Part shown: in pieces, positions 1,641 through 53,818 of the stretch
Layout of the letters: every line of letters starts with the position of its first letter
How positions within the stretch are numbered: position 1 is the stretch's first letter
DNA from: an uncultured Candidatus Saccharibacteria bacterium
GTDB lineage: Bacteria > Patescibacteriota > Minisyncoccia > Phycocordibacterales > Phycocordibacteraceae
Direction of reading: 5' to 3'
DNA: 53,818 nucleotides
Assembly (NCBI GenBank): GCA_964402535.1
Contig: CAYOCH010000004.1
Coordinates: 1 to 53,818 of the forward strand
The notes under the pieces: model-generated
What the model saw: only the letters and a program-made list of their open reading frames with translations
Databases searched by the model: none
What the model was told of the DNA's origin: nothing
Program-made: the position numbers and the translations under genes

Positions 1641-1681
1641 ATAGAACTTACGTCTATTGTATTCGGCATATCGTAATCATA

Positions 1682-1687: not shown

Positions 1688-1695
1688 GAATATGC

Positions 1696-2451: not shown

Positions 2452-2519
2452 AGTCGTTTGGCATTCCGCGTTATACCCACATCGCATCAAGAGCTGCACA
2501 CACGAGGAGCAGACAAGGC

Positions 2520-2525
2520 TATACT
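2520..2525 (+). promoter_or_regulatory. -10-like hexamer TATACT, 7 nt before ATG 2533
   Basis: ggcTATACT-gtagctc-ATG. Confidence 0.4.
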
Positions 2526-2532
2526 GTAGCTC

Positions 2533-3081
2533 ATGAAGAAGCGAGCGAAGCGCATCGCCGCTCTTGCGAGTGAGACGGAGACGCTCATCGTCGCCGGGCT
2601 GGCGCTCGTGCTTGTCGCCGGCGGCGTCTACTATTACCTCTCTTCCGCAGTGCAGCAGCAGGAGCGCGCACCGGTCGTCACGGAGGCTGCGCCCGCAGAG
2701 GTCGCGGTGCCCTTCACAGAGCTCGCGCGCGGTAGCAAGTCGACCGTGAAGACGCGCGTTAATTACTTGATCCGCACGCCTGAGGACTTGAAGAAGCTGT
2801 GGAAGATGGTCGACGCGACGAGCACGCCGCCCAAAGTAGACTTCACTCGCGAGACGGTCATCGCCGTCTTTGCCGGCAAGGCGCCGACCGCAGGTTACGC
2901 CATTTCCGTATCACAGATCACCGACGCTGAAGAGCGCATGGTCTCGATCACGGTCGCCAAGCCCGATCGCACCTGCATGACGGCCAATGTGCTCACCATG
3001 CCATACGAGGTGGTGAAGGTCCCGACCACGTCGCTCCCGCTCACGCACGAGGACGTTACGGTCGCGAAGAGCTGCCCCTAG
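2533..3081 (+). CDS. Membrane-anchored PrcB C-terminal-domain-like protein (182 aa)
   Basis: N-terminal TM LIVAGLALVLVAGGVYYYL. The C-terminal part (VIAVFAGKAPTAGYAISVSQI...MVSITVAKP...MTANVLTMPYEVVKVP) resembles the PrcB_C family pattern. Confidence 0.5.
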   Translation: MKKRAKRIAALASETETLIVAGLALVLVAGGVYYYLSSAVQQQERAPVVTEAAPAEVAVPFTELARGSKSTVKTRVNYLIRTPEDLKKLWKMVDATSTPPKVDFTRETVIAVFAGKAPTAGYAISVSQITDAEERMVSITVAKPDRTCMTANVLTMPYEVVKVPTTSLPLTHEDVTVAKSCP

Positions 3082-3101
3082 GCGCGCTCCAGTCGGCGCG
3101 G

Positions 3102-3107
3102 TAGAGT
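3102..3107 (+). promoter_or_regulatory. -10-like hexamer TAGAGT, 6 nt before ATG 3114
   Basis: TAGAGT-gagcgc-ATG. Confidence 0.3.
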
Positions 3108-3113
3108 GAGCGC

Positions 3114-8283: not shown

Positions 8284-10146
8284 ATGGAGAATCCTGAGCG
8301 CGTCACCTACTTTGCGGCGACCGATTCGCGCGGGAAGCATGTCCCCTTCGGCATCAAGGCCAAGGATCGCGATCGCCACATGTACATCATCGGCAAGACC
8401 GGTATGGGCAAGTCGACCTTACTCGAGAACATGGCGATCCAGGATATCCGCAATGGCGAGGGGCTCGCCTTCCTCGACCCGCACGGCGCGACCGTCGAGC
8501 GGCTCCTCGACTACATCCCCGAGGAGAGGATCAAGGACGTGGTCTACTTCGCCCCGTTCGACCTCGAGCATCCGGTGGCCTTCAACGTGATGGAGGACGT
8601 CGGCTACGACAAGCGCCACCTCGTCGTCTCCGGCCTCATGGCCACCTTCAAGAAGCTGTGGGTCGACGCCTGGAGCGCGCGTATGGAGTACATCCTCACG
8701 AATACACTCCTCGCGCTCCTCGAATACCCTGACGCGACGCTGCTCGGCGTGAACCGCATGTACACCGACAAGGCGTACCGGCAGAAGGTGGTCGACAACG
8801 TGAAGGATCCGGTGGTGAAGGACTTCTGGACCAAGGAGTTCGCGAACTACGGCGACCGCTACACGCAAGAGGCGACACCCGCGATCCAGAACAAGGTCGG
8901 CCAGTTCACCGGGAACCCGCTGATCCGCAACATCATCGGGCAGTCCAAGTCATCGTTCGACATCCGCACGATGATGGACGAGCGCAAGATCCTCATCATC
9001 AACCTGTCGAAGGGGCGCGTTGGCGAGACCAACATGCGGCTCTTGGGCTCGATGCTCACGACGCGCATCTTCCTCGCTGCGATGAGCCGCGCCGACCTCT
9101 CGGCCGCCGAGATGGCCAAGAAGCCGCACTTCTACTTCTACGTCGACGAGTTCCAGAACTTCGCCAACGAGACGTTCGCCGAGATCCTCTCTGAGTCGCG
9201 CAAGTACAAGCTCAACCTGGTGATCACGAATCAGTACATGAACCAGATGGAGGAGCCGGTGCGCGACGCAGTCTTCGGCAACGTCGGCACGACCGCCTGC
9301 CTGCGGGTAGGGCCCTTCGACGCCGAGGTGCTCGAGACCGTCTTCACACCCAAGTTCACCGCCGAGGATCTCGTGAACCTCGACAAGTTTCAGATCTACC
9401 TCACGCTCATGATCGACGGCGTCGGGAGTGCGCCCTTCTCAGCGGTGACACTGCCGTCGATCGAACCGCCGCCCGTCTCCTTCCGCGACAAGATCATCGA
9501 GGCGTCGCGCGCACAGTTCGCCTCGCCGCGCGAGGGGATCGAAAAGTCGATCATCGCCGAGCTCATGGAGAGCGCGGAGTCCGAGGCCCCGGCCGACGCG
9601 CGTATGCGCCGCAAGCCGGTTCAACGCGCACCGAGAGATGAACCGCGTCGGGACGCACCGCCGGCGATGCAGCAGCGCGAACCGATGCGGCCGATACCGA
9701 TGCGCGAGCCTGAGCGTCATGAGCCGCCGCGCGATCGTGCGCCGGAGCTGCGCCGCGAACGACCTGAGAGGCAAGAGCGCCAGGAGCGGCCGGCACCGAT
9801 CGCTGCGGCAAAGAGCGCAGACGACCTGAAGGCGATCCTCCGCACCATGACGGCGAACCACGGCGCGCAGGTAGCCGAAAAGAAGTCGACCCATCAGGTG
9901 TCGCTCAAAGGGGCGCTCTCCCAGGTGCTGCAGAACCACGTTCCGGCACCGGCGGCAAAGCTCCAGCCGGCGCCAAAACTGGCCCCACAACCCGCCCCTA
10001 AGGCCCCAGAAGCCCCTAAGGCAGCGGCTCCAGAGCCGCCTCGGGTAGAGGAGCGGCTCCTACCGCCAGGGGATCCTGTGGCCGAGAAGAAGCCATTCGA
10101 GGTCCCCGAGAACGAGTTGCGGCAGGTGCTCAAGGGTGAGAAATAA
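8284..10146 (+). CDS. Soluble P-loop ATPase of the TraD/TraG/VirD4 coupling-protein type (type IV secretion system DNA-binding domain family), with a ~190-aa Pro/Arg/Glu-rich disordered C-terminus
   Basis: Walker A IIGKTGMGKSTLL, Walker B-like HFYFYVDEFQNF, SRKYKLNLVITNQY. No N-terminal TM. The tail carries REPERHEPPRDRAPELRRERPERQERQERP and PAPKLAPQPAPKAPEAPKAAAPEPP. Confidence 0.6.
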   Translation: MENPERVTYFAATDSRGKHVPFGIKAKDRDRHMYIIGKTGMGKSTLLENMAIQDIRNGEGLAFLDPHGATVERLLDYIPEERIKDVVYFAPFDLEHPVAFNVMEDVGYDKRHLVVSGLMATFKKLWVDAWSARMEYILTNTLLALLEYPDATLLGVNRMYTDKAYRQKVVDNVKDPVVKDFWTKEFANYGDRYTQEATPAIQNKVGQFTGNPLIRNIIGQSKSSFDIRTMMDERKILIINLSKGRVGETNMRLLGSMLTTRIFLAAMSRADLSAAEMAKKPHFYFYVDEFQNFANETFAEILSESRKYKLNLVITNQYMNQMEEPVRDAVFGNVGTTACLRVGPFDAEVLETVFTPKFTAEDLVNLDKFQIYLTLMIDGVGSAPFSAVTLPSIEPPPVSFRDKIIEASRAQFASPREGIEKSIIAELMESAESEAPADARMRRKPVQRAPRDEPRRDAPPAMQQREPMRPIPMREPERHEPPRDRAPELRRERPERQERQERPAPIAAAKSADDLKAILRTMTANHGAQVAEKKSTHQVSLKGALSQVLQNHVPAPAAKLQPAPKLAPQPAPKAPEAPKAAAPEPPRVEERLLPPGDPVAEKKPFEVPENELRQVLKGEK

Positions 10147-10152
10147 TCGCCC

Positions 10153-11298
10153 ATGAGACTTGCCGGATTCCTCGCGCTCGCGCTCTTCGCACCGGCACTC
10201 GCATTCGCGGCGGATCTCATCAATATCAATACGGCAGACGCGACGCTCCTCGACTCGCTGCCGCACATCGGCGCGGCGACCGCGCAGAAGATCATCGCCT
10301 ACCGCGAGGCGAACGGGCCATACACGACGATCGAGGACATCAAGAAGGCGAGCACGTATATCAGTGACAGTTATTACGCCGACATCGCACCCTTGATCAC
10401 CGTCGGTGATGCGGCCGCTCCGGCAGCGGCGGTCGCGTCGACGACAGAACCGCAGACGGCAGGCCGCGCCGCGGCCTACGTGCCGCCGCCCTCCGCGATC
10501 GCGATCGAGGTAACGGGTGACGATGCTGCAGTGCTGAACGTCCCGCTCAAGCTTGCGGCACGGGTGACGGGGAAGAGCGGTGCGGTCGACTCTGCGGCGC
10601 AGATCAGCTGGAGCTTCGGCGACGGGTCGCGCGGCGAGGGGACAGAGGTCGAGAAGGTCTATCGCTACGCGGGGACCTATCTCGTCACTGCGACAGCGCA
10701 AGACGGGAGCGCGAGGGCGCGTGATGAGATCGTCGTGACGGTCAAGGCCGCTGCGCCGCGGATCGCCTCGGTCACGGCTGAGGGGATCATGCTCGCGAAC
10801 GACGCTAGCGACCGGCTCGACCTCTCCGGCTGGCGGCTTCTCGCCGACACCGGCTCGTTCCGCATCCCCGAGGGGACGACGATCCTCCCGAATGCGAGCG
10901 TCCTCTTCCCGTTCACGATCATGAATTTGCCGGTCGCGTTCTCTGCCGTGCTCGCATATCCGGACGGCACGCTTGCGGCACTCTCTGCCGCTCCGGTCGT
11001 GCAGGCAGACACGCAGGTGCTGCAACCTCTCGCTCCGGAGCCTGGTTTGAATGAAGTACAGACGGTCGAGTCTGTAGTAGCTACCACGATAAGCGGTACG
11101 GCGCATGACGATCAAGCAGTTCGCGCCCCCGCGGCGGCGACAGAGCTCGCTGCCGCGGGGGCGGCATTGCCTCCTGTTCCGCCTGAAGCTACGCAGGACA
11201 CAGGGTCTCGCGGCACGAACGGGCTCCTCCGATCGCCCTGGACCCTGGGCTTCCTCGGCGTAGTGGCGCTCGCCGGCGGGGCGTTCATCCTGCTCTGA
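10153..11298 (+). CDS. Secreted ComEA-type helix-hairpin-helix DNA-binding protein fused to PKD-like and lamin-tail-like domains, with a C-terminal hydrophobic anchor
   Basis: Signal peptide MRLAGFLALALFAPALAFA. HhH INTADATLLDSLPHIGAATAQKIIAYREANGPYTTIEDI. PKD-like ISWSFGDGSRGEGTEVEKVYRYAGTYLVTATAQDG. LTD-like LDLSGWRLLADTGSFRIPEGTTILPNASVLF. C-terminus LGFLGVVALAGGAFILL. Confidence 0.65.
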   Translation: MRLAGFLALALFAPALAFAADLININTADATLLDSLPHIGAATAQKIIAYREANGPYTTIEDIKKASTYISDSYYADIAPLITVGDAAAPAAAVASTTEPQTAGRAAAYVPPPSAIAIEVTGDDAAVLNVPLKLAARVTGKSGAVDSAAQISWSFGDGSRGEGTEVEKVYRYAGTYLVTATAQDGSARARDEIVVTVKAAAPRIASVTAEGIMLANDASDRLDLSGWRLLADTGSFRIPEGTTILPNASVLFPFTIMNLPVAFSAVLAYPDGTLAALSAAPVVQADTQVLQPLAPEPGLNEVQTVESVVATTISGTAHDDQAVRAPAAATELAAAGAALPPVPPEATQDTGSRGTNGLLRSPWTLGFLGVVALAGGAFILL

Positions 11299-38646: not shown

Positions 38647-38726
38647 GGATAGTCGTATCGTAGCATTTATGAGAACCGACCGATGGCCGCAGGGGTCGCA
38701 CGCGATGGTATGCTGTCCGTACCTAT

Positions 38727-39356
38727 ATGTTCGACATCTTGAAGACGACAGCGAAGCTTCTCCTCAGGCGGGGGACATTCCGCTCGTACAGCCAGTTCGG
38801 CGAGGATGCGATCGTCGCGCCCCTGTTCCGCAACAAGACGGACGGCGTCTATGTCGATATCGGCGCATACCATCCGCACCTCTATTCCAATACGTTTGCG
38901 TTCTATCGGCGCGGGTGGCGCGGAGTCGTCGTCGATCCGAATGCGAGTCTTGCGATGCTGTACCGCGTCTTCCGGCCGCGCGACACGTTCGTACATGCAG
39001 GCGTCGGCGCGAGCGCGACGAAGACGTACCACCAGTATGCCGACGGCGCGTACAACGGATTCGAGGATCGACAGGTGCCCTCGCGGCTGGTCCGCACCTA
39101 TGATGTGCCGATACTGCCGCTCGCGGACATCGTGAGGCAGAACAAGTTGTCGCGCATCGACCTGCTGTCGATCGATACGGAGGGGATGGAGGAGGAAGTG
39201 CTCGGCTCGTACGACTGGTCGGTGGAGCCGACGGTCATCGTAATCGAGTCGGAGCGCGGGTCGCCTGCGGCGCATCTGCTCGAGAGCCGCGGCTACGCGC
39301 TCGTCGCGCAGACAGGCCTCTCGCTCGTGTTCAAGAAGGCTGGCGCAGCCGTGTAA
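38727..39356 (+). CDS. FkbM-family methyltransferase (209 aa)
   Basis: YSQFGEDAIVAPLF, GVYVDIGAYHPHLYSNTFAFYRRGWRGVVVDPN, IDLLSIDTEGMEEEVL. Confidence 0.75.
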   Translation: MFDILKTTAKLLLRRGTFRSYSQFGEDAIVAPLFRNKTDGVYVDIGAYHPHLYSNTFAFYRRGWRGVVVDPNASLAMLYRVFRPRDTFVHAGVGASATKTYHQYADGAYNGFEDRQVPSRLVRTYDVPILPLADIVRQNKLSRIDLLSIDTEGMEEEVLGSYDWSVEPTVIVIESERGSPAAHLLESRGYALVAQTGLSLVFKKAGAAV

Positions 39357-39413
39357 GTTTCCGGTTGATGAAGCGTATAATGAAGGAAGGGAATCACACT
39401 TAATAATCACGTC

Positions 39414-40268
39414 ATGAACAAATACAAGTATGTTGCAGGTGTTTCGGCGTTGGCGCTCGTCATCGGCGCGATGCCGCTTGCGGCGCTCGCCGAGCGCGGC
39501 GGGGGCGAGGACGGGCAGGGCGACTCGCCGGTCGCGATCACGGCCGTGAGCGCGCAGGTCGGCTCGACGACCTCGGGTGAGCGCGTCCGTCCCTCGATCA
39601 AGGGCGGCGAGCAGGAGGATGGGGTCGAGAGCGAGGGCAATGCCTCTTCGACCGAAGGGATCAGGCACGCGTATGAGCAGGCGAACGAGAATGCGAAGCA
39701 CGCGATCGAGAAGGCGATGGAGCTCGCGAAGGAAGGGTTCCCGTTCTTCCTCGAGGGGACGACGACGCCCGTGACCTCGCTTGAGGCCTTGAAGAAGTCG
39801 ATCGAGGAGCGCAAGCAGGAGCTCGACGACGAAGAGGCGAGCTCGACGCCGGACGCGCAGGAGGTCGCAAAGAACGCGAACCCGGTCCGTCTCGCGGTGC
39901 ACGCGCTCCTCGCGTCGAAGGACATCCTCGGCGGTATCGGAGGACAGGTCTCGCAGATCGCGCAGCAGATGAACGACTCGATCGCGACGACGACCGCAGC
40001 GCAGGCCGACATCCAGTCGCGCGGGTTCCTCACGCGCCTCTTCTTCGGCGGCGACAAGGCGTCGGCGAATGCGCTTAACGAGGCGATCTCGCAGAACGCC
40101 GAGCGCATCGCGTCGCTCACGACTCTCTTGAACCAGGCGAGCACGACCGCCGACGTCAAGGCGACGATCGAGGCGCAGATCGCGGCCTTCCAGACCGCGC
40201 AGACGAATCTCCAGGCGCTTGCCGCAAAGGAGCAGAGCCAGTGGGGGATCTTCAGCTGGCGGTTCTAG
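39414..40268 (+). CDS. Secreted alpha-helical protein of unknown function (284 aa)
   Basis: Signal peptide MNKYKYVAGVSALALVIGAMPLAALA. The rest is Ala/Glu/Gln/Thr-rich and helical-looking. TAATAAT ends 6 nt before the ATG, and a GC-rich hairpin follows the stop. Confidence 0.6.
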   Translation: MNKYKYVAGVSALALVIGAMPLAALAERGGGEDGQGDSPVAITAVSAQVGSTTSGERVRPSIKGGEQEDGVESEGNASSTEGIRHAYEQANENAKHAIEKAMELAKEGFPFFLEGTTTPVTSLEALKKSIEERKQELDDEEASSTPDAQEVAKNANPVRLAVHALLASKDILGGIGGQVSQIAQQMNDSIATTTAAQADIQSRGFLTRLFFGGDKASANALNEAISQNAERIASLTTLLNQASTTADVKATIEAQIAAFQTAQTNLQALAAKEQSQWGIFSWRF

Positions 40269-40296
40269 TGCGATAGGCAGACGAGCGTGAGCAGCA

Positions 40297-40324
40297 GCGC
40301 GGCCGCCCCGGAGGGCGGCCGCGC
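40297..40324 (+). terminator. GC-rich hairpin after the secreted-protein gene (terminator-like, weak U-tract)
   Basis: GCGCGGCCGCC (40297-40307) / GGCGGCCGCGC (40314-40324), followed by TCCCGTTT. Confidence 0.5.
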
Positions 40325-40358
40325 TCCCGTTTAGGCCATGTGGTATGATTGCCCCATC

Positions 40359-42527
40359 ATGGCGAGCGGCGGTACGGCGAAGCAGGTCGCGCGGTGGGTC
40401 GCGCTTTCGGCATTGTTCCTGATCCCGTTCACGCCGCTCCTCGTCGCGAACAGCTACTTCTTCCCGTTCATTACGGGCAAGGCGTTCTACTTCCGCGTCC
40501 TGGTCGAGATCCTGTTCAGCTCCTGGATCGTCCTCGCGGCGCTTGACCGCGAGTATCGCCCGCGCTTCTCCTGGATCGGCGCCGCGGCCGTCGCGTTCGT
40601 CCTGTGGATGCTCGTCGCCGACTCGTTCGCGCCGAACGCCGCCAAGGCCTTTTGGAGCAACTTCGAGCGCATGGAGGGCTGGGTGCTCCTTATCCACCTG
40701 CTCGGCTTCTTCTATGCCGCTGGCGCGATACTCCGCACAGAAAAGAAGTGGCGCGCCTGGTTCACGACCTCGCTCGTCGCCTCGCTCCTTGTCTCGGGCT
40801 ATGCGCTCCTGCAGCTCGCCGGTACGCTCGCGATCCATCAGGGCTCGACGCGCATCGACGCCACCTTCGGCAACTCGGCCTACCTCGCGATCTACTTCCT
40901 CTTCAATGTCTTCATCGCGCTGTGGCTCGCGCTCACCGAGCGCGCGGCGTGGCTCAAGCGGAGCCTCATCGTCCTCGCCGTCCTCGAGGCGATCCTCATC
41001 TTCTTCACAGAGACGCGCGGCACGGTGATCGGGCTTGTGCTCGCACTCGCACTCGCCGCGTTCCTCACGGCGCTCACTGCAGGGCAGAAGGCGCGCGGCT
41101 ACGCGCTCGCAGCGCTCGCACTCATCGTCCTCGTCTCCGGCAGTCTCTATCTTGCACGTGACTCTGTGTTTGTGAAGGGCAACCACGTCCTCGAGCGCGT
41201 CACCTCGATCTCGGCCGCCGACGGCGTGACGCGCTTCACGATCTGGGGCATGGCGCTCCAGGGTGTCGCGGAGCGGCCGCTCCTCGGTTGGGGGCAAGAG
41301 GGCTTCAACTACATCTTCAATACATACTACGACCCGTCGCTCCACGCGCAGGAGCCGTGGTTCGACCGCGCGCACAACGCGTTCATCGACTGGCTCACGG
41401 CGGGCGGCGTCCCGGCGTTCCTCCTCTACGTCTCGCTCTTCGGTACGGCGCTCTTCTACCTCTGGCGCCGCTCCGAGCTCTCGCGCCCCGAGCGCATCGC
41501 GCTCACGGGTGCCTTGGTCGGCTATGCCGTGCACAATCTGTTCGTCTTCGACAACCTCTACTCCTACGTCTACTTCTTCGCGATACTCGCGATGATCGAC
41601 TCGCAGGTCGCGCGGCCGATCGAGCGGCTCGAAGCTGCGCCCGAGCTTGGTGCGGACGAGGGGATCACCTACGCGCTCCCGATCGGGGCTGTCGCCGCCT
41701 TCGCGCTTATCTGGTTCGTGAACGTGCCGGGGATGACGGTTGCGAACAAGCTCATCACCGCGCTCACGCCGACCGCCTCGAGCCCCGACTCGAATCTCGC
41801 CGTCTTCGAGGATCTCGCGACGCGTCCGGCGTTCGCCGCACAGGAGGTGCGCGAGCAGATCGTCTCCTTCGCCGCATCCGTCGCGCAGAGCCAGCAGGCG
41901 AGTACGGAGCAGAAGCAGAAGGCGCTGGTCCTTGCCGTCACCGAGATGAGCAAGCAGGTCGCCGCGTATCCGCAGGACGCGCGCGAGCGGCTCGAGCTCT
42001 CCTATGCCTACCGCGCGGGAGGCGACTCGGCCGACGCATTGAAGCAAATCAAGGCGGCGCACGAGCTTTCGCCCAAGAAGGAGGACATCCTGATCGAGAT
42101 GGGCGCGACCGAGTGGGACATGGGCAACGTGCAGGGCGCCAAGGACGATTTCAACCAGGCATATCTGCTCGGCCCCCAATTCCAAGACCTGGCGGCGTAC
42201 GCGGCAGCAGGCGACATCGCGGTCGGCGACACGACTGCAGGCGACGCGATTCTCCTGAAGAGCTATGGCACGACGACCGTCGACAGCGACATCCTCGCCG
42301 TCGCCTACTACCGCGCCAAGATGTGGCCGCGCCTCATCGCGCTCTGGCAGCTCCGCGCCAGTAAGCCCGACGCGCCGGTCGAGACGTGGTTCTCGCTTGC
42401 GGCTGCCTATTACACCTCGGGCGACAAGGCGACCGCGATCGCCACGATCAAGAAGGCCGTGCAGCTCTTCCCGTCGGCGGCGACTGCCGGCCAGGCGGCG
42501 ATCCAGCAGATTCAGTCAGGGAAATGA
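40359..42527 (+). CDS. O-antigen ligase/polymerase (Wzy_C) family membrane protein with a C-terminal TPR-like domain (722 aa)
   Basis: Ten or more TM segments, including the Wzy_C-like loop FFTETRGTVIGLVLALALAAFL. The soluble C-terminal ~230 aa have TPR-like repeats (LELSYAYRAGGDSADALKQIKAAHELSP..., WFSLAAAYYTSGDKATAIATIKKAVQLFP). Start taken at ATG 40359, 9 nt after TATGAT. The track start is 40338. Confidence 0.7.
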   Translation: MASGGTAKQVARWVALSALFLIPFTPLLVANSYFFPFITGKAFYFRVLVEILFSSWIVLAALDREYRPRFSWIGAAAVAFVLWMLVADSFAPNAAKAFWSNFERMEGWVLLIHLLGFFYAAGAILRTEKKWRAWFTTSLVASLLVSGYALLQLAGTLAIHQGSTRIDATFGNSAYLAIYFLFNVFIALWLALTERAAWLKRSLIVLAVLEAILIFFTETRGTVIGLVLALALAAFLTALTAGQKARGYALAALALIVLVSGSLYLARDSVFVKGNHVLERVTSISAADGVTRFTIWGMALQGVAERPLLGWGQEGFNYIFNTYYDPSLHAQEPWFDRAHNAFIDWLTAGGVPAFLLYVSLFGTALFYLWRRSELSRPERIALTGALVGYAVHNLFVFDNLYSYVYFFAILAMIDSQVARPIERLEAAPELGADEGITYALPIGAVAAFALIWFVNVPGMTVANKLITALTPTASSPDSNLAVFEDLATRPAFAAQEVREQIVSFAASVAQSQQASTEQKQKALVLAVTEMSKQVAAYPQDARERLELSYAYRAGGDSADALKQIKAAHELSPKKEDILIEMGATEWDMGNVQGAKDDFNQAYLLGPQFQDLAAYAAAGDIAVGDTTAGDAILLKSYGTTTVDSDILAVAYYRAKMWPRLIALWQLRASKPDAPVETWFSLAAAYYTSGDKATAIATIKKAVQLFPSAATAGQAAIQQIQSGK

Positions 42528-43658: not shown

Positions 43659-43667
43659 TTATCCACA
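43659..43667 (+). promoter_or_regulatory. Perfect DnaA-box consensus 9-mer TTATCCACA
   Basis: Exact TTATCCACA in the AT-rich murB-secA spacer, flanked by the 10-nt direct repeats TTTTTTCTCA (43631-43640 and 43676-43685). Confidence 0.35.
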
Positions 43668-48863: not shown

Positions 48864-48929
48864 CCCCCTCTCGTACCTCCCCCAGAGGGGAGCGTGTGCA
48901 CATCTCTTCCATACCAGCCGAGATGTGGC

Positions 48930-48935
48930 TATACT
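48930..48935 (+). promoter_or_regulatory. -10-like hexamer TATACT, 6 nt before ATG 48942
   Basis: ggcTATACT-ggtcgc-ATG. Confidence 0.45.
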
Positions 48936-48941
48936 GGTCGC

Positions 48942-49700
48942 ATGGATGAGCTCACCATCGGCGACAAGAAGTACGTATCGTCTAAGCGAGCCGCAAAACT
49001 CACTGGGTACGCCAAGGATTATGTCGGCCAATTGTGTCGAGAGGGTCGTGTCCCGGCACGGCTCGTTGGTCGCGCGTGGTACGTGCTCGAGTCGGCGATC
49101 CAGGATCATCGCTTCGGCGATGACAACGGCTCGAAAGAGGAGGCCGCAAGCATCGCCGGCGAGAGCGAGGTGTGGGAGTCGCCGAAGTATGAGGCTGACG
49201 CCGTCGAGTCGCTGCCGAGCGTGAACCGCATACATGATGTCGAGCCGGTGAAGCACGAGAGCGAGAATCTCTCACAGCACCTGCAGGACTCGTGGAAGGC
49301 GTGGTTCGATCGCGTTGCTGCCCCGACATCTGAAGTCGGGGTCGCGACCGAGAGCGTCAGGAAGGCAGAGGAGCCGGCGGCAAAGCCGCTACGCGAAGAC
49401 ATCGTGCCGATCAGGGCGATCCATCATGCGCCGATCGAACCGCTCCCAGACGAGCTTCTGCCGCGCAGGGTAGCGAGCCGCATACCGACACGGCCTGAGG
49501 CTCTCGAGGCCTCCTACGCACCTGTGGCGCCTCGCAGGGGCACCAGCAAGGGTGTGCGCTATAGCCTCCAGTTCGCTGGTGCTCTAGTTGCGCTCATCAT
49601 GGCCTCACTCGCCATCGCAGGCACAGGCTATTTTGATACGTTCGCCGTCTCGCATACACAAGTCGGCGCAGCAGCAGGAGTATATCTCTACAATAGATAG
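48942..49700 (+). CDS. Tail-anchored protein with an N-terminal excisionase/MerR-type HTH (HTH_17-like) (252 aa)
   Basis: HTH KYVSSKRAAKLTGYAKDYVGQLCREGRVPARLVGRAWYVLESAI, an acidic linker, and a C-terminal TM LQFAGALVALIMASLAIAGTGYF. Start taken at ATG 48942. The track start is GTG 48894. Confidence 0.65.
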   Translation: MDELTIGDKKYVSSKRAAKLTGYAKDYVGQLCREGRVPARLVGRAWYVLESAIQDHRFGDDNGSKEEAASIAGESEVWESPKYEADAVESLPSVNRIHDVEPVKHESENLSQHLQDSWKAWFDRVAAPTSEVGVATESVRKAEEPAAKPLREDIVPIRAIHHAPIEPLPDELLPRRVASRIPTRPEALEASYAPVAPRRGTSKGVRYSLQFAGALVALIMASLAIAGTGYFDTFAVSHTQVGAAAGVYLYNR

Positions 49701-49749
49701 CGTATAGCTTAGATATCTCGTCTCGTATAGGCAATATATATGAGTGATG

Positions 49750-49770
49750 CTTGTAAGTTAAACTTACAAG
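49750..49770. repeat. Perfect 21-nt palindrome in the AT-rich island (candidate operator)
   Basis: CTTGTAAGTT-A-AACTTACAAG. Confidence 0.7.
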
Positions 49771-50077
49771 ATAAATGCAACATTATATTACTTGTAGAGA
49801 GGAAGATTTTCGGTTAAAGAGGATCAATATTTTAATTTCGTTTTATACAGAGGAATATTGTTCGCACAACGTGTTTGAGTGAATATTTTGCGTAGAACAA
49901 GCGATCACAAGCCGGAATTTTCGCTGGAACGCGCGATGTGTTGAGGCTGATCACGATGTGAGGACGAAATTGAGGGCGTATATGTTCATACGCGTGATGA
50001 GTCGAATTTTTTGAACGACCGGCGACAAATTCGCCTAACATTTTTGTAATGCGCAGTCACAAAATGTTTTTCGAAAT

Positions 50078-50086
50078 TTATCCACA
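50078..50086 (+). promoter_or_regulatory. Perfect DnaA-box consensus 9-mer TTATCCACA
   Basis: Exact TTATCCACA, 69 nt upstream of ATG 50156 and ~35 nt upstream of the TACTAAGAT -10-like stretch (50120-50128). Confidence 0.35.
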
Positions 50087-50100
50087 CATGAATTCTTCAT

Positions 50101-50157
50101 ATGTCGGATGAAGCCGAAATACTAAGATAAAATGTAGTTAATTCGGATATCCGACAT
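50101..50157 (+). promoter_or_regulatory. Inverted repeat that would pair the giant ORF's start codon into a stem
   Basis: ATGTCGGAT (50101-50109) is the exact reverse complement of ATCCGACAT (50149-50157), which includes the AT of ATG 50156. An inner CCGAA (50114-50118) / TTCGG (50142-50146) extends the stem. Confidence 0.45.
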
Positions 50158-53100
50158 GACCTCGCTCCTTAACGATCATCTAATATCGACAAGCGAAGCG
50201 AGTAGCATTTCGGGCTGCCACGCAGACTACATCGCGCGACTTGCTCGCGCGAAAAAAATTTCAGGCCGCCGCATCGGCCGCAACTGGTTCGTCGACCGGC
50301 AGTCGCTGCTCGCCTTCATCGAGGAGCAGGGCGGACGCAAGAGTGATTACGCACGCGCGCTCGCGCACGCGCGCGCGAAGGAGTTCGAGGCGCACCAAGC
50401 GCCGGTAGCGCGCGTAATCCGCGCAGTCGAGAAGCCGGTCGTACGCCTGACTGCGCGGGCGAGTGAGCCGGAGTTTGACATCCCGGGTGCCTCGATGTCT
50501 TCGCATTTCATGGCTATTGCGGCGGCATTCCTCGTCGTCGGTGCGGGCGCCATCATGGCGCAGTCGAGCGTGATCCCGCAAGCAGCAGAGCGCGTAGCGC
50601 TTGTGGCGACGCAGGCGTCGATCGGATTCGCCGTCGCGTTCGGCGAGGTCCCGTCGCGCCTCAATAGCGATATGAATGCGGCGACATCGCACGTCGCGAC
50701 GGTGGTTGATCGTGTCGCGAGTGGTGAAGCCTCGACGACGCATGCAATCGCGCCGACGATAGCGATCGACCTCTCAGCGTTGCCTGCGCCGGCTGTCGCG
50801 ACGATCGACGTACGTGCGCATCGCGTCCCGATGCCGGTCGTGCCGGCTGACGAGCAGGTGCTCACCGTCGAAGAGCTCAAGACGTCTGCGGTTGCTGCAG
50901 TCGGTACGTTCGCGTCGCCCACGCGCGCGATCGGCGCTGCACACGATGCGTATGTAGCGCTCGGCACTGCCGGCTATCGCGCGATCGTCGAGTCGCTCCT
51001 CGCGTATCGCGCGCTCCTCGCGCACGCGGGCGACCGCGCGCTCGCGCTCGGCTCGGTGACGCGCGATACGATCGCCGCCTCGCCGCGGATGATCGCCAGC
51101 ATGAACCTCGCGCTCGGTGAGCTCGCGGTCGGCGCGTCGCGCGCGGCGATCCGCGCCGACGTCTCGCTCGCCTACGGCACGGCCGCTGCGGCCCCGGCCA
51201 CCGCGCGCGCGACGGTCGCCCTTATCGGCAACACGGGCGACGCGATCGAGCTCGCTACCGCCCGCCTCGCCTATGGCGCGCCAGAACGCATCGCGCAGGC
51301 GGTCTTCGACACAGAGGTCGCGATCGCGCGCCCGATCGTCGCCCTGAACGAGGAGCTAGAGGGCGCGTACATAGCCGCCGTCTATCACACCGGCTACGCG
51401 ACCGAGAGCACGGCCTCGGGCGCGCTCGCGCTCGCAGACCGGGCCGCGCAGGCGCTGCCCGGGCAGGTCAGGCCGTCAGAGATGCTCGCGAGCGCCGGCG
51501 CAGCGGCGCGTGACGCGTATCTCGGCGCGCTCGGCAAGAGCGCCGTCGCGCTAGAGTCTCTCACGCGCTCATCCGGCCTCGCCGCCGCGCTCTCGGCAGG
51601 CGAGCAGGTCGCGCTCGCGACGTATGAGTCGATTAACGGCTTCTTCTCTACCACGAGCCGCGCGATCGCGTCGCTCTTTGGTTCGACCTCCTCCGTGACA
51701 AGTAGCCCGCTGGTGCCGGTCACTGCTGCAAATTCGCCTCGTGTCGCTGTCGCTCCGGTCGCGTCCTCTACTCCTCGGGCGGCTGCTCCTGCTCGTGCTC
51801 CTGCTCCTATCATCAATTCCTATCCCTCCTACGTGACTACCGTCAACGGCGTCTCGCAGAGCTACGTCGACAGCGCGGTCATGAACATGCGTAACGGGAT
51901 CCTCGCGACCGTCTCGGGCATGGTGCAGCCGATCGCCACGCAGACCGTCATCAACCAGAACACGATCCAGCAGGTCAACATGATCCAGCGCTTGGGCGGG
52001 CTCATCGTCGACAACGGCGTCTTCAACGGCGGCACGTTCGACAAAGGGAACATAACGAACGGCATCGCAGTCACATCGGCAAACGGCACGTTCACCAATC
52101 TCGCCGCTGGAGCCACGACTCTCGCCACTACGACCGTCTCGGGCGACCTCACCCTCTCCGGCATCCTCACCGCCAACACCAAGGCCGTCGCCCCCTACTT
52201 CGTCGCCACCGCATCTAACGCGACCAGCACTTTCGCGGGCGCCGTCGGCATTGGCACCACCTCGCCCGCCGGGTTGTTGCATCTGGCGAGCACGGCACAG
52301 CGGAATATCCTCGTCGCCGATGGAACGGCCGGCAGGGTGTATTTCGGTACCTCGACGAACCCGTTCATGCGCGTGGACGAAATCGGCGGCGGAGGGATGG
52401 TGAGTATCGCAGCATCCGGCGCCATGGAGGGGCTCTCGATCATCGGGAGCACCTGGCCGAACAGCGCGCTTTCGTTCAGCGGCATCGATTATCAGGGATT
52501 GAATTACCGCGACCGCGGCGCGCTCTACTACGAGGCGGCGCAAGGCGGCCAGTATGGGTCATTGGTTCTCACGACCTCTCGTACGGACATCCCGCTTCAA
52601 CTGCAATCGAACGGCGGCAACGTCGGCATCGGGACCACCTCGCCCGACGCTCTCCTCGCCCTGCAGCAGACAGTGAACGGCGTGCCCTTCATCTCTGCGT
52701 ACCGCGCGACGGACGCCGCGCCTGCAGGCGACTTTATCAACTACAAGACCAAGAGCGGCACGACGCTCTTCCGCGTCGACAACTCGGGCAACCTGATGGC
52801 CGGCGGCATCATCAACACCGGCAGCCAGACCATCACCTCGGTCACGTCGCCGCAGTTCAGAGTGCAGTACGACGCATCTCATGAAATCACTACCTCGGTG
52901 AGTTCGACCGGAACGACGACTCTCGGGGTCACGAACGGACTCGTCTTCACGCCGACGAACAACGGCGTGAACACCTTCAACTTCACCAACGCGCTCGGCA
53001 CGAACTCGATCCTCTCCGTCGACACGCTTAACAAACGTGTCGGGATCGGGACCACGAGCCCGATGTCTCTGCAGACCATCGCGCTCGCCGACGGCGGCGC

Positions 53101-53818
53101 TATCTCGAGCAACAATCCGATGCTGACCGTGAGCCACACGGCGAACGCCGCGTACCCCTATGCCGGCATCCAGCTGAATCACTTCACGACCTTCGGCAAT
53201 CAGGGAGGCGCGGACATCTCGTTTGCGAATAACGGCGTGACCGAGGGGTTGATCCAATTCGATTCGGACCTCGGCATCCCGAACAACTTCAGGATCGAGA
53301 ACCAGACCGCGACCGGCCCGATCACGTTCGCGACTAACGGCGCTTCGCCGACCGAACGGATGAGGATAACCAGTGGAGGAAATATCGGCATCGGCACCAC
53401 TTCTCCTGCGGGTCGACTTTCGATTAACACGCCGGGGTCGGGGTCAGGGCAGGCGTTCATTGTCGATACATCGACGGCGAGCGACGGCCGATATAGCTTC
53501 GTCGTGCAAGATAACGGCAACGTCGGTATCGGCGTGCGGAATCCGTCACAAGCGCTCCAGCTCGGCAACTGGTCAGGCAATTTCACGCCGAAGCTTGAAC
53601 TTGACTATAGCTATGCGACGTATGGTTCGACATACGCTGGCACGCTCTTCCATGCAGGGAATAGCGCCGGTGTGCAGGGAACCGGTGGCTTGCAGATACA
53701 GTCAATCGGGAACAGCTCGATCGTATTCTCAAACGGAACGACCGTCCGCCAAATCATCGACCAGAACGGCAACGTCGGCATCGGGACGACGAGTCCGGAT
53801 CGGCCACTGACGGTCGTC
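50156..53818 (+). CDS. Giant membrane-anchored surface fibre-like protein, 5' partial (1,221 codons in the window, no stop): HTH_17-like N-terminus, one TM, an Ala-rich stalk and a tail-fibre-like repeat region
   Basis: I translated the frame by hand from ATG 50156 (in-frame TAG at 50135-50137 upstream) to base 53818 and found no stop. HTH STSEASSISGCHADYIARLARAKKISGRRIGRNWFVDRQSLLAFI. TM FMAIAAAFLVVGAGAIMA (50507-50560). Six copies of N-[VI]-GIG-TTSP. The third codon position is strongly G/C. The ORF is not in the supplied track. Confidence 0.85.
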   Translation, partial: MTSLLNDHLISTSEASSISGCHADYIARLARAKKISGRRIGRNWFVDRQSLLAFIEEQGGRKSDYARALAHARAKEFEAHQAPVARVIRAVEKPVVRLTARASEPEFDIPGASMSSHFMAIAAAFLVVGAGAIMAQSSVIPQAAERVALVATQASIGFAVAFGEVPSRLNSDMNAATSHVATVVDRVASGEASTTHAIAPTIAIDLSALPAPAVATIDVRAHRVPMPVVPADEQVLTVEELKTSAVAAVGTFASPTRAIGAAHDAYVALGTAGYRAIVESLLAYRALLAHAGDRALALGSVTRDTIAASPRMIASMNLALGELAVGASRAAIRADVSLAYGTAAAAPATARATVALIGNTGDAIELATARLAYGAPERIAQAVFDTEVAIARPIVALNEELEGAYIAAVYHTGYATESTASGALALADRAAQALPGQVRPSEMLASAGAAARDAYLGALGKSAVALESLTRSSGLAAALSAGEQVALATYESINGFFSTTSRAIASLFGSTSSVTSSPLVPVTAANSPRVAVAPVASSTPRAAAPARAPAPIINSYPSYVTTVNGVSQSYVDSAVMNMRNGILATVSGMVQPIATQTVINQNTIQQVNMIQRLGGLIVDNGVFNGGTFDKGNITNGIAVTSANGTFTNLAAGATTLATTTVSGDLTLSGILTANTKAVAPYFVATASNATSTFAGAVGIGTTSPAGLLHLASTAQRNILVADGTAGRVYFGTSTNPFMRVDEIGGGGMVSIAASGAMEGLSIIGSTWPNSALSFSGIDYQGLNYRDRGALYYEAAQGGQYGSLVLTTSRTDIPLQLQSNGGNVGIGTTSPDALLALQQTVNGVPFISAYRATDAAPAGDFINYKTKSGTTLFRVDNSGNLMAGGIINTGSQTITSVTSPQFRVQYDASHEITTSVSSTGTTTLGVTNGLVFTPTNNGVNTFNFTNALGTNSILSVDTLNKRVGIGTTSPMSLQTIALADGGAISSNNPMLTVSHTANAAYPYAGIQLNHFTTFGNQGGADISFANNGVTEGLIQFDSDLGIPNNFRIENQTATGPITFATNGASPTERMRITSGGNIGIGTTSPAGRLSINTPGSGSGQAFIVDTSTASDGRYSFVVQDNGNVGIGVRNPSQALQLGNWSGNFTPKLELDYSYATYGSTYAGTLFHAGNSAGVQGTGGLQIQSIGNSSIVFSNGTTVRQIIDQNGNVGIGTTSPDRPLTVV

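What the first reader, a model, noticed from the sequence alone, without database searches (positions are those of the whole stretch)
50156..53818. A plus-strand ORF of at least 1,221 codons is absent from the supplied ORF track
The track lists only minus-strand or off-frame ORFs for 50.2-53.8 kb (for example 50347..50967-, 51569..52543-, 52559..53257-, 53373..53810+). These have the Arg/Asp/Gly-rich look of shadow frames. The frame starting at ATG 50156 is open to the last base of the window. I translated every codon, and the only in-frame stop is upstream at 50135-50137. The track presumably drops it because it never reaches a stop. Its architecture, in order, is as follows. A cytoplasmic HTH (~aa 8-55). 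A TM helix (50507-50560). About 400 aa of Ala-rich, probably helical stalk. A Pro/Ala linker (SSTPRAAAPARAPAPI, ~51763-51810). More than 660 aa of Thr/Gly/Asn/Ser-rich beta-type sequence with tail-fibre-like repeats. A protein this large in a small-genome organism, preceded by an elaborate control region, is a prime candidate for a host-attachment or contact fibre.
Basis: seen in the sequence. Interest (0 to 1): 0.8.

Follow-up and report, generated by a model that had tools for sequence, protein, structure and literature searches.

The report
Giant surface fibre with cytoplasmic HTH
The unlisted reading frame is a real gene: it encodes the first 1,221 residues of a giant, membrane-anchored, tail-fibre-like surface protein of a small-genome Patescibacteria bacterium, and it carries a DNA-binding domain on its cytoplasmic end, which hints at a direct link between the cell surface and the genome.

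Summary
The + frame from ATG 50156 is open to base 53818: 1,221 codons with 0 stops (chance about 3e-14), and GC3 matches the neighbouring genes. The protein is the truncated N-terminus of a family with 259 representative clusters at E<=1e-30. Every hit that carries a source name, and all 50 genome loci found, are Patescibacteria (mostly labelled Kaiserbacteria or Paceibacterota). Complete members are 2,470-7,214 aa and end in Peptidase_S74 plus two Ig-like domains. In about 50 genomes the gene sits at a fixed locus (murB-secA-obg-gatB-small HTH_17/TM partner-giant gene). It is absent from viral contigs. About 45 nt before the ATG is conserved (77% vs 27% control) and co-varies with the HTH. 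Best reading: an N-in/C-out surface fibre, probably for contact or attachment, whose cytoplasmic HTH binds DNA at its own promoter. Surface location, trimerisation, adhesion and DNA binding are inferred, not shown. No DGR signal was found. I found no published description. The C-terminus of this copy could not be recovered.

The parts
48942..49700 (+). Small partner gene (252 aa): N-terminal HTH_17, an acidic/Pro-rich linker, and a C-terminal TM helix (aa 207-232), i.e. tail-anchored. The true start is ATG 48942, not the GTG 48894 of the mechanical ORF list.
   Evidence: Pfam HTH_17 E=1.4e-4, below the family cutoff. Sequence and TM segment. A homologue sits directly upstream of the giant gene in all ~50 loci. 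Its first 58 aa are 87% identical on average across 42 genomes, and its promoter region is conserved up to a TATACT box 6 nt before the ATG.
49701..50155 (+). AT-rich spacer of 455 nt holding the control region of the giant gene.
   Evidence: Sequence. Equivalent spacers in relatives are mostly ~300-790 nt and have about 15-20% lower GC than their loci. Conserved blocks appear in a 3-way alignment. No credible Rfam match.
50078..50086 (+). TTATCCACA box, identical to the DnaA-box consensus, about 40 nt upstream of a -10-like box. It is a general promoter-upstream element of this clade, not specific to this gene.
   Evidence: There are three perfect copies in the window (1632, 43659, 50078), all intergenic and all on the + strand. 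The same 9-mer lies before secA and before the giant gene in nearly every related locus.
50111..50155 (+). Gene-specific conserved element abutting the start codon (consensus atgcCGaAAtaataAGtTATTATTTAGtTAATTCGgtTATCCGAC-ATG). It includes GCCGAAAT (50113-50120) and the palindrome TCGGATATCCGA (50143-50154). It is the candidate promoter, 5'UTR and operator.
   Evidence: Mean pairwise identity is 77% across 39 genomes, against 27% for a control stretch 200 nt upstream. It occurs once in the window. Its divergence co-varies with the giant's HTH. The inverted repeats are not kept by compensatory changes, so the conservation looks DNA-level (my reading).
50156..53818 (+). Giant-protein gene, 5' part only (1,221 codons, open to the end of the window).
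   Evidence: open frame and coding signal; homologues; synteny.
50177..50329 (+). HTH_17 (excisionase/MerR-like winged helix), aa 8-58, cytoplasmic.
   Evidence: Pfam PF12728: 29.3 bits against a cutoff of 27, E=1e-6. AF2 pLDDT ~95. Foldseek matches Pukovnik Xis, TraN, BldC, RacA and Tn916 Xis. It is the best-conserved segment of the N-terminal core over 111 members.
50330..50431 (+). Conserved basic helix following the HTH (aa 59-92; RK.DYARALA.AR..E[YF]...).
   Evidence: AF2 predicts a continuous helix over aa 48-92. K62, R73, E76 and Y/F77 are nearly invariant.
50498..50566 (+). Single transmembrane helix (aa ~115-137), acting as a signal-anchor.
   Evidence: Kyte-Doolittle peak of 2.06. 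AF2 helix over aa 112-136. It is the only hydrophobic segment in each of the nine complete giants checked. The N-terminal flank has net charge +3 and the C-terminal flank -1.
50567..51760 (+). Family-defining Ala-rich helical ectodomain (aa 138-535), a putative stalk.
   Evidence: Ala content 25%. AF2 predicts long helices at 255-344, 376-432, 440-472 and 481-508, with pLDDT of only 50-72. No Pfam, PDB or Foldseek match. Conserved in 259 representative clusters.
51761..51820 (+). Pro/Ala linker (aa 536-555), variable and predicted disordered.
51821..52075 (+). Conserved 'neck' (aa 556-640; YPxYxTxVxGVS...ILATVxGMxQP...TIQQVNMIQ), at the base of the fibre.
   Evidence: Alignments. Top-residue frequency 0.60.
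52076..53818 (+). Tail-fibre-like region (aa 641-1221) with six GxVGIGTTSP motifs and a conserved inserted module (aa ~833-960). It is cut off by the window end.
   Evidence: PHROG tail-fibre families phrog_9942 (E=2.9e-8) and phrog_18345 (E=1.4e-3). 1,402 homologues, many ending in PF13884 Peptidase_S74. Motif positions.

Best explanation
The ORF is the 5' part of a real gene for a giant, single-pass cell-surface fibre with its N-terminus inside the cell and its C-terminus outside. The fibre is a vertically inherited fixture of a Kaiserbacteria/Paceibacteria clade of Patescibacteria.

Shown:
- The frame is coding.
- The protein has a cytoplasm-side HTH_17 of the excisionase/MerR-like DNA-binding fold and one TM helix.
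- It then has a ~400-aa helical Ala-rich domain with no known relatives, a linker, a conserved neck and tail-fibre-like repeats.
- Complete relatives run to 2,470-7,214 aa and end in one or two Peptidase_S74 domains followed by two bacterial-surface Ig-like domains.
- The gene always follows a small tail-anchored HTH_17 partner at the locus murB-secA-obg-gatB.
- A ~45-nt DNA element abutting the ATG is conserved and co-varies with the giant's HTH.

Inferred:
- The ectodomain is exported by Sec.
- It trimerises with the help of the S74 intramolecular chaperone, as phage fibres do.
- It projects a wall-spanning helical stalk and a long beta-fibre whose Ig-like tip contacts a host cell or a substrate.
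- The HTH binds DNA, making the protein a transmembrane transcription regulator in architecture. Alone or with the small partner, it binds the conserved element or the GCCGARAT motif at the pair's own promoters.
- The simplest consequence is autoregulation and/or tethering of the locus to the membrane, so that this very long secreted protein is transcribed, translated and exported in one place (transertion).

My confidence by step: real gene and family membership ~0.98; extracellular fibre ~0.75; HTH acting on DNA at its own promoter ~0.4.
For: Coding: 0 stops in 1,221 codons against 13-61 in the other frames, GC3 0.79, P=2.7e-14.

Domains:
- HTH_17 above the Pfam cutoff, with AF2 pLDDT ~95.
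- The closest folds are all dsDNA binders: Pukovnik Xis (TM 0.70, rmsd 1.5 A), TraN, BldC, RacA and Tn916 Xis.
- There is a single TM segment in the target and in each of nine complete relatives.
- The ectodomain is predicted helical.
- PHROG tail-fibre hits, and 1,402 fibre homologues, many with PF13884.

Family:
- 259 representative clusters at E<=1e-30, most matching the whole 641-position core from residue 1. Lengths reach 7,214 aa.
- Pfam on complete members gives HTH_17, then Peptidase_S74, then 2x Bact_surface_Ig-like.
- The C-terminal module lies at the very end of all complete members.
- The S-D-x-R-x-K catalytic-type motif is intact in P0141 and P0153.

Cellular, not mobile:
- The order murB-secA-obg-gatB-small HTH-giant holds in ~50 species-level genomes.
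- There are 0 relatives in 2.9 M viral contigs, and no tblastn hit in GenBank phages.

HTH importance: it is the best-conserved segment of the core (0.72 against 0.45 for the Ala-rich core), and the partner's HTH is 87% identical across genomes.

DNA element:
- 77% against 27% identity, and unique in the window.
- GCCGARAT lies before the -10-like box of both promoters.
- Divergent 'type-2' giants differ in both the HTH and the element.
- Mantel r=0.82-0.83. Partial r is 0.66-0.68 given GatB, and 0.63 given the protein's own Ala-rich core (p~3e-4). Other segments of the protein give 0.24-0.49.

Precedents: transmembrane transcription regulators are widespread, and 56% are single-pass (PMC10269533). 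Membrane transcription factors have been linked to transertion of a secretion system (abstract of PMC9977878).
Against: - The C-terminus of this copy lies outside the window. It could not be recovered: no closer relative than 47% identity was found, and the metagenome scan gave at most 43%. So S74 and the Ig-like tip are inferred from relatives only.
- Nothing here shows surface exposure, trimerisation, adhesion or expression.
- The fibre label rests on profile-level similarity. tblastn against GenBank phages finds nothing.
- The stalk model has low confidence (pLDDT 50-72, pTM 0.24).
- DNA binding is not shown. An HTH can be a protein-docking module, as in RodZ (my own knowledge).
- The element and the HTH-coding DNA are adjacent, so shared local history can inflate Mantel correlations. 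Partial Mantel tests are also liberal on related sequences.
- The count of GCCGARAT matches is not above chance (2 found, 1.6 expected).
- Whether this clade is episymbiotic is not known from these data.
Confidence: 0.58

Rival explanations
1. Contact-sensing signal transducer. The fibre is primarily a sensor. Binding or pulling at its tip changes the oligomeric state of the membrane-bound HTH, or releases it (ToxR/CadC-like, or by regulated proteolysis), and this switches a wider regulon for the attached lifestyle.
For: The architecture is the same as in the best explanation: a DNA-binding domain, a single TM helix and a large ectodomain. The HTH is the best-conserved segment. Some members carry two tandem HTHs. 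There is a co-conserved membrane partner, which recalls the ToxR/TcpP and VtrA/VtrC pairs.
Against: No cleavage site and no site-2 protease context was seen. The conserved element occurs only at the gene's own promoter within the 53.8 kb examined, so no regulon is visible. An ectodomain of 2,000-7,000 aa is far larger than a sensor needs.
Confidence: 0.2
2. Structural surface fibre or coat protein in which the HTH is not a DNA binder. Instead it is a cytoplasmic docking module, as the HTH of RodZ docks to MreB. It would tie the fibre base to the small partner or to another cytoplasmic protein.
For: There is a precedent for an HTH-TM protein whose HTH binds a protein (RodZ, my own knowledge). 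The partner has the same kind of HTH and is membrane-anchored beside it. The gene is present at a fixed core locus in every genome of the clade examined, as expected for a structural component.
Against: The nearest folds are all dsDNA-binding proteins. The conserved DNA element abuts the gene and co-varies with the HTH more than with other segments of the protein.
Confidence: 0.15
3. A phage or prophage tail-fibre gene, or a tailocin component, carried in the bacterial contig.
For: PHROG tail-fibre hits. S74-bearing relatives of the repeat region, one of them named 'tail fiber domain-containing protein' by its source. HTH_17 is also the excisionase fold.
Against: The locus sits between housekeeping genes in a fixed order in ~50 genomes. 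No phage genes flank it in the window. There are 0 relatives of the N-terminal core in viral contigs and no tblastn hit in GenBank phages. An N-terminal signal-anchor TM fits a cell protein better than a virion protein.
Confidence: 0.03
4. A non-coding or chimeric frame: a chance open frame, a shadow of minus-strand genes, or an HTH gene fused to a fibre gene by misassembly.
For: High-GC DNA gives long spurious ORFs, and the minus-strand ORFs of 206-324 aa overlap the frame.
Against: P=2.7e-14 for chance. The codon-position GC is typical of coding sequence. Hundreds of independent assemblies encode the same continuous HTH-TM-core-fibre protein.
Confidence: 0.01

Closest known systems
Transmembrane transcription regulators (TTRs: ToxR, TcpP, CadC, VtrA), as surveyed by Demey et al. 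2023, PMC10269533
   Same: An N-terminal cytoplasmic DNA-binding domain, a single TM helix and an extracytoplasmic C-terminal domain. A second membrane protein is encoded next to it, as with ToxR/ToxS, TcpP/TcpH and VtrA/VtrC.
   Different: The DNA-binding domain is HTH_17 (excisionase/MerR-like), not the OmpR/PhoB-type winged helix of ToxR/CadC. The ectodomain is a fibre of 1,100 to more than 7,000 aa instead of a small sensor domain. The partner itself carries an HTH. A term search of that paper's main text finds neither Patescibacteria nor HTH_17. Regulation of transcription has not been tested.
Phage tail fibres and tailspikes with a C-terminal Peptidase_S74 intramolecular chaperone (e.g. 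K1F endosialidase, T5 L-shaped fibre); function from my own knowledge
   Same: G/T/S/N-rich repeat sequence that hits tail-fibre PHROGs. Complete relatives carry S74 with an intact S-D-x-R-x-K motif near the C-terminus. The polarity is the same, with the N-terminus attached to the carrier and the C-terminus distal.
   Different: The protein is anchored to a cell membrane by its own TM helix, not to a virion. It has a cytoplasmic HTH and a ~400-aa helical domain unknown in phages. About 450 aa of further conserved domains (a second S74-like domain, a coiled coil, a beta domain and 2x Ig-like) follow S74. It is not in a phage or prophage context, and it has no tblastn-level similarity to GenBank phages.
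MYRF (eukaryotic myelin regulatory factor); my own knowledge
   Same: To my knowledge, the only well-known protein that combines a DNA-binding domain, a TM helix and a phage-type S74 (ICA) domain in one chain. It is a membrane-tethered transcription factor.
   Different: In MYRF the S74 domain lies between the DNA-binding domain and the TM helix on the cytoplasmic side, and its self-cleavage frees the DNA-binding trimer. Here S74 lies more than 2,000 aa beyond the TM helix on the outside, so its cleavage could not free the HTH. The DNA-binding domains are unrelated (Ndt80-like in MYRF, HTH_17 here).
RacA (B. subtilis) and BldC (Streptomyces): small MerR/excisionase-like winged-helix DNA binders
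   Same: They are among the closest structural matches to the HTH (TM 0.59-0.68). RacA tethers chromosomal DNA to the membrane-associated pole (my own knowledge), which is a precedent for this fold linking DNA to the envelope.
   Different: They are soluble proteins with no TM helix and no ectodomain. Sequence identity is only 10-22%.
RodZ; my own knowledge
   Same: Cytoplasmic N-terminal HTH, a single TM helix and an extracytoplasmic C-terminal part. It is conserved as a core gene.
   Different: RodZ has an XRE-type HTH that binds MreB and a small periplasmic domain. No RodZ-type domains were detected here.

Membership tests
Pfam HTH_17 (PF12728) / excisionase-family DNA-binding domain | Sequence match above the curated threshold | tested here: met
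   29.3 bits against a gathering score of 27, E=1e-6, aa 10-58. NCBIfam TIGR01764 'excise' scores only 21 bits against a cutoff of 28.8.
Pfam HTH_17 (PF12728) / excisionase-family DNA-binding domain | Winged-helix fold of the Xis/MerR-N type | tested here: met
   AF2 gives strand-helix-helix-strand-strand at pLDDT ~95. Foldseek matches Pukovnik Xis at TM 0.70 and rmsd 1.5 A, and also BldC, Tn916 Xis and RacA.
Pfam HTH_17 (PF12728) / excisionase-family DNA-binding domain | Binds double-stranded DNA | not testable with these tools
   Only indirect evidence: a conserved adjacent DNA element that co-varies with the HTH.
Transmembrane transcription regulators (operational class of PMC10269533) | A recognised DNA-binding domain in the same chain as at least one TM region | tested here: met
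   HTH_17 plus one TM helix. The definition is read.
Transmembrane transcription regulators (operational class of PMC10269533) | Controls transcription while in the membrane | not testable with these tools
   No expression or binding data are available.
ToxR/CadC family proper | OmpR/PhoB-type winged-helix domain (Trans_reg_C) | tested here: not met
   The Pfam scan finds only HTH_17.
Phage tail fibre/tailspike with S74 chaperone | C-terminal Peptidase_S74 domain | tested here: inconclusive
   The window ends before any C-terminus. S74 is present in complete family members P0141, P0153 and P0147 and in P0004.
Phage tail fibre/tailspike with S74 chaperone | Encoded in a phage or prophage as a virion component | tested here: not met
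   Fixed housekeeping synteny in ~50 genomes. No relatives in viral contigs. No hit in GenBank phages.
Phage tail fibre/tailspike with S74 chaperone | Homotrimeric beta-fibre | not testable with these tools
   No multimer modelling was available. The monomer model of the N-terminal core says nothing about the fibre.
DGR (diversity-generating retroelement) target gene | A template/variable repeat pair and a nearby reverse transcriptase | tested here: not met
   There are no repeats of 45 nt or more involving the gene, except two chance-level matches at 72-76% identity. No RT domain was found in the ORFs scanned across the window. The missing 3' part of the gene was not examined.
MYRF-like membrane transcription factors | S74/ICA domain between the DNA-binding domain and the TM helix, so that self-cleavage releases the DNA-binding part | tested here: not met
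   In complete relatives S74 lies about 1,800-3,000 aa after the only TM helix.
Sortase-anchored (LPXTG) surface adhesins | C-terminal sorting signal with a hydrophobic segment | tested here: not met
   Complete relatives have a single hydrophobic segment, at the N-terminus. They end in Ig-like domains plus a Ser/Thr/Pro-rich tail.

The most novel reading that the evidence does not exclude
A one-protein wire from the cell surface to the genome in ultra-small symbiotic bacteria. The tip of a giant tail-fibre-like adhesin would touch a host, and its own cytoplasmic HTH would convert that contact into a transcriptional or chromosome-tethering response, together with a near-invariant tail-anchored HTH partner. 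This would be a bacterial counterpart of Notch/MYRF-type membrane-tethered transcription factors, built from phage-fibre parts and conserved as a core locus next to secA.
Probability: 0.15. Interest if true: 0.9.

Novelty: new variant of a known kind. Interest (0 to 1): 0.66.

Why it matters
From my own knowledge, Patescibacteria are a large share of bacterial diversity, most are thought to live attached to other cells, and almost nothing is known about how the Paceibacteria lineages make or sense contact. This work identifies a conserved two-gene module that is probably among the largest genes in these roughly 1-Mb genomes. Public records I saw name it only 'helix-turn-helix domain-containing protein, partial', and it is usually broken by assembly. 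The module joins a phage-fibre-like surface structure to a DNA-binding domain across the membrane. If the fibre is the attachment organelle, it is a direct handle on host recognition. If the HTH is active, it is a very compact route from the surface to gene control, or an example of a gene that anchors itself to the membrane for export. There is also a practical lesson: ORF tracks that drop frames lacking a stop codon will systematically miss these genes at contig ends.

Tried and rejected
1. Extending the contig. A genome-contig scan with the single protein found nothing. With the alignment as query it found 50 loci, but none closer than ~47% identity. The metagenome scan gave 8 loci at 43% identity or less. 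So the C-terminus of this copy remains unknown. P0002 looked complete at 1,039 aa, but it is frameshifted and its fibre continues to the contig end.

2. Fold of the Ala-rich ectodomain. AF2 with 10 sequences was unusable (mean pLDDT 38). With 40 sequences it predicts long helices at pLDDT 50-72. Foldseek matched only the HTH.

3. PDB by sequence. No hit with the single protein. With the profile, only AM32/TraN-like hits at E=0.38.

4. RNA element in the spacer. There is no credible Rfam hit. The two inverted repeats near the ATG are not maintained by compensatory changes (my reading). I rejected an RNA structure in favour of DNA-level conservation.

5. oriC. The perfect DnaA-box 9-mer suggested an origin of replication. 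I rejected this because there is one box per spacer and the same box sits before secA and another gene with promoter-like geometry.

6. DGR. No TR/VR repeats and no RT.

7. Regulon. The gene-specific element is unique in the window, and GCCGARAT occurs only at the pair's own two promoters, a count not above chance.

8. Prophage origin.

9. Literature. Seven searches found no description of this family. The giant-gene preprint 10.1101/2023.11.21.568195 mentions CPR only in passing.

10. The last word-indexed homologue search, run with the profile, added only four proteins.

Full report
OBSERVATION. Translating 50135-53818 on the + strand gives a stop at 50135-50137, Met at 50156, and then 1,221 sense codons up to the last base of the window. 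The other five frames of the same 3,663 nt carry 13-61 stops. GC at codon positions 1/2/3 is 0.59/0.54/0.79, which matches neighbouring genes (GC3 0.73-0.89). With the region's own base composition, the chance of no stop in 1,221 codons is 2.7e-14.

ORGANISM AND CONTEXT. The window starts inside the 3' half of a bacterial 16S rRNA gene (1-583) and holds one tRNA-Ile but no 23S. Its genes are cellular:
- Mur ligases, a T4SS-coupling-protein-like ATPase and a ComEA-like protein.
- A glycosyltransferase/polysaccharide cluster of about 30 kb.
- MurB, SecA, Obg and GatB.

All homologues of the target that carry a source name, and all 50 genome loci found, are from Patescibacteria. They are labelled Kaiserbacteria, Paceibacterota, Minisyncoccia, Parcubacteria and the like. 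One relative lies on a closed 993-kb Kaiserbacteria chromosome (L028). The contig begins in an rRNA gene and ends in a repetitive giant gene. Both are typical assembly break points (my inference).

ANATOMY OF THE 1,221 RESIDUES.
- aa 8-58: HTH_17. Pfam gives 29.3 bits against a cutoff of 27. AF2 pLDDT is ~95 with a 40-sequence alignment. Foldseek matches only this part. All good matches are dsDNA-binding winged helices of the excisionase/MerR-like kind: mycobacteriophage Pukovnik Xis (TM 0.70, rmsd 1.5 A), enterococcal TraN, BldC, RacA and Tn916 Xis.
- aa 59-92: a conserved basic helix that continues from the HTH.
- aa ~115-137: the only hydrophobic helix. The positive N-flank, together with the nature of what follows, argues for an N-in/C-out topology (inference).
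- aa 138-535: 25% Ala, predicted as very long helices at modest confidence (pLDDT 50-72). It has no Pfam, PDB or Foldseek relative.
- aa 536-555: a variable Pro/Ala linker.
- aa 556-640: a conserved neck.
- aa 641-1221: a G/T/S/N-rich region with six GxVGIGTTSP motifs. It hits tail-fibre PHROGs at E=2.9e-8 and 1.4e-3. It has 1,402 homologues, many ending in Peptidase_S74 and one named 'tail fiber domain-containing protein' by its source.

THE FAMILY. The word-indexed search found only nine relatives, most of them marked 'partial'. An exhaustive profile search of 1.84 billion representatives with the N-terminal core (alignment A1) found 6,254 hits at E<=1e-3 and 259 at E<=1e-30. Most of the latter match all 641 profile positions from residue 1, and many are giant proteins of 2,470 to 7,214 aa.

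Pfam on three complete members gives HTH_17 in two of them (P0153, P0147). All three have Peptidase_S74 (two matched stretches in P0141 and P0153, one in P0147) and two Bact_surface_Ig-like domains at the extreme C-terminus. This C-terminal module closes every complete member, including four of the five genome loci where a stop codon is reached. Each of nine complete giants has exactly one hydrophobic segment, near residue 105-140, or 230-252 where the HTH is duplicated. An S-D-x-R-x-K motif, which is the S74 catalytic signature from my own knowledge, is intact in P0141 and P0153.

The apparently complete 1,039-aa P0002 is frameshifted, and its fibre continues to the contig end. So the window's protein is very probably a third to a half of the full protein. 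Truncation at contig ends is the rule for this family: most loci run off the contig or locus end.

A FIXED LOCUS WITH A PARTNER. The gene just upstream (true start ATG 48942, 252 aa) encodes a second HTH_17, an acidic/Pro-rich linker and a C-terminal TM helix. In essentially all 50 genome loci the order is murB-secA-obg-gatB-small HTH-giant HTH. The module is therefore vertically inherited and not mobile. In agreement with this, no relative of the core was found among 2.9 million viral contigs, and neither half of the protein finds any GenBank phage by tblastn.

The partner's first 58 residues are 87% identical on average across 42 genomes. That is more than SecA or GatB, at about 63-83%. Within the giant's N-terminal core, the HTH is the best-conserved segment over 111 members: top-residue frequency 0.72, against 0.45 for the Ala-rich core and 0.27 for the juxtamembrane stretch.

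CONTROL REGION. The pair is separated by an AT-rich spacer of 455 nt here, and mostly ~300-790 nt elsewhere. About 80 nt before the ATG is conserved at the DNA level in ~45 genomes whose proteins are 30-47% identical.

The distal box, TTATCCACA (50078-50086), equals the DnaA-box consensus (my own knowledge). However, it also precedes secA and a third gene with the same spacing to a -10-like box, in this window and in nearly all related loci. So it is a general promoter-upstream element of the clade. It is neither gene-specific nor evidence of an origin.

The proximal 45 nt (50111-50155) are gene-specific. Their mean pairwise identity is 77%, against 27% for a control stretch, and the core motif occurs once in the window. 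The partner's promoter is conserved too, and it ends in TATACT 6 nt before its ATG, which suggests a leaderless mRNA. Both promoters carry GCCGA(A/G)AT just before the -10-like box. Inverted repeats in the element are not kept by compensatory substitutions (my reading), and Rfam finds nothing. This points to protein-DNA recognition rather than RNA structure.

A divergent 'type-2' subfamily (P0004/L001, and the second giant in L027) differs in both the HTH recognition region and the element. Quantitatively, distances between HTHs and between elements correlate at r=0.82-0.83. The partial r is 0.66-0.68 after controlling for GatB, and 0.63 after controlling for the same protein's Ala-rich core (p about 3e-4). 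Other segments of the protein give only 0.24-0.49. The caveats are that the two segments are adjacent and that Mantel tests are liberal on related sequences.

MECHANISM.

Shown: a real gene, its domain order, family size, fixed locus, partner, conserved element and co-variation.

Inferred:
1. Sec-dependent export of the C-terminal part, leaving the HTH in the cytoplasm.
2. Trimerisation with the help of S74, by analogy with phage fibres (my own knowledge of S74).
3. A helical stalk that crosses the wall and a long beta-fibre whose Ig-like tip binds a host or a surface.
4. DNA binding by the HTH at the pair's own promoters, giving autoregulation and/or membrane tethering of the locus for coupled transcription, translation and export.

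Transmembrane transcription regulators are widespread, and 56% are single-pass (PMC10269533). A link between membrane transcription factors and transertion has been reported for a Vibrio T3SS (abstract of PMC9977878). The rivals are a true contact-sensing transducer with a wider regulon, a RodZ-like protein-docking HTH, a prophage fibre (contradicted), and a spurious frame (refuted).

COMPARISON AND NOVELTY. By the operational definition the protein is a transmembrane transcription regulator. It fails the ToxR-family test because its DNA-binding domain is of a different type. It resembles S74 tail fibres but is not a phage component. It shares the set of parts with MYRF, but the domain order rules out the MYRF release mechanism.

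I found no paper describing this architecture in seven searches and two papers read. The source names I saw say only 'helix-turn-helix domain-containing protein' or 'hypothetical protein'. I rate it a new variant of known kinds: a TTR-type membrane protein whose ectodomain is a giant tail-fibre-like adhesin, paired with a tail-anchored HTH.

LIMITS. The C-terminus of this copy could not be recovered. No DGR repeats or reverse transcriptase are present in the part of the genome that I could see. Trimer modelling, expression data and binding assays were not available.

Noticed in passing
window 1632-1640, 43659-43667, 50078-50086; also L003-L030 (before secA and before the giant gene): The perfect 9-mer TTATCCACA, identical to the DnaA-box consensus, lies ~40 nt upstream of -10-like boxes of several unrelated genes: the ORF at 1696, secA and the giant gene. 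It is conserved at those places in dozens of related genomes. It looks like a clade-wide promoter-upstream element, either DnaA acting as a global regulator or a different factor.
   Followed up: partly
window 48894-48941: The conserved promoter of the small partner gene (TGTGCACA...AGCCGAGATGTGGCTATACT) ends 6 nt before ATG 48942, which suggests a leaderless mRNA. The mechanical ORF start at GTG 48894 is upstream of the true start.
   Followed up: partly
window 584-2451: The spacer between the 16S gene and tRNA-Ile is unusually long, about 1.8 kb. It holds two ORFs: 869-1390 with no Pfam hit, and 1696-2385 with an N-terminal HTH_23 and what looks to me like a LAGLIDADG-type motif (GLMLYAAEGDK), so possibly a homing-endonuclease-like gene. 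No 23S rRNA gene follows in the window, so the rRNA genes appear unlinked.
   Followed up: no
L027 1510-9708 and 9965 onward: One Paceibacterota genome carries two giant genes in tandem. The first is a complete type-1 copy of 2,732 aa. The second is a divergent 'type-2' copy with a different HTH and a different upstream element. Some members (P0201, L043, L031) have two HTH_17 domains in tandem.
   Followed up: partly
L001 2304-8123 (P0004) and downstream to ~14.3 kb: The fibre of P0004 is interrupted by an intein (Hint/Intein_splicing) that encloses a NYN nuclease-like domain, and the protein ends in the start of another Hint domain. Downstream lie NYN, PemK-toxin and Bro-N genes, a further intein/S74/Ig-like fragment and a Y1 transposase. 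Mobile elements have invaded the 3' part of this giant gene.
   Followed up: no
window 38667-42185 (-) versus 40338-42527 (+): A 1,172-aa minus-strand ORF with no Pfam hit overlaps a plus-strand Wzy_C/TPR (O-antigen-ligase-like) gene. It is most likely a high-GC shadow ORF.
   Followed up: partly
window 8284-11298: A TrwB/TraG-like coupling-protein ATPase (8284-10146) lies next to a ComEA-like HHH_3 + PKD protein (10153-11298). This may be a DNA-uptake or DNA-transfer pair.
   Followed up: no
window ~11.3-43.6 kb: A very large block of glycosyltransferases, sugar epimerases/dehydratases, methyltransferases, flippase-like genes and a Wzy-like gene occupies more than half of the contig, a few kb upstream of a Ser/Thr-rich surface fibre. 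Whether it glycosylates the fibre is an open question.
   Followed up: no
complete relatives P0141 (aa ~2500-3115), P0153, P0147, P0129, P0130, P0133, P0135: About 450 aa of conserved sequence follow the first S74 domain: a second S74-like stretch, a coiled-coil-like segment (LYKLATF...LE.R..ALE), a 'GSWWVSDK' domain and 2x Ig-like domains. In known fibres S74 is the terminal, cleaved-off domain (my own knowledge). So either cleavage releases a large module here, or S74 is not cleaved.
   Followed up: partly
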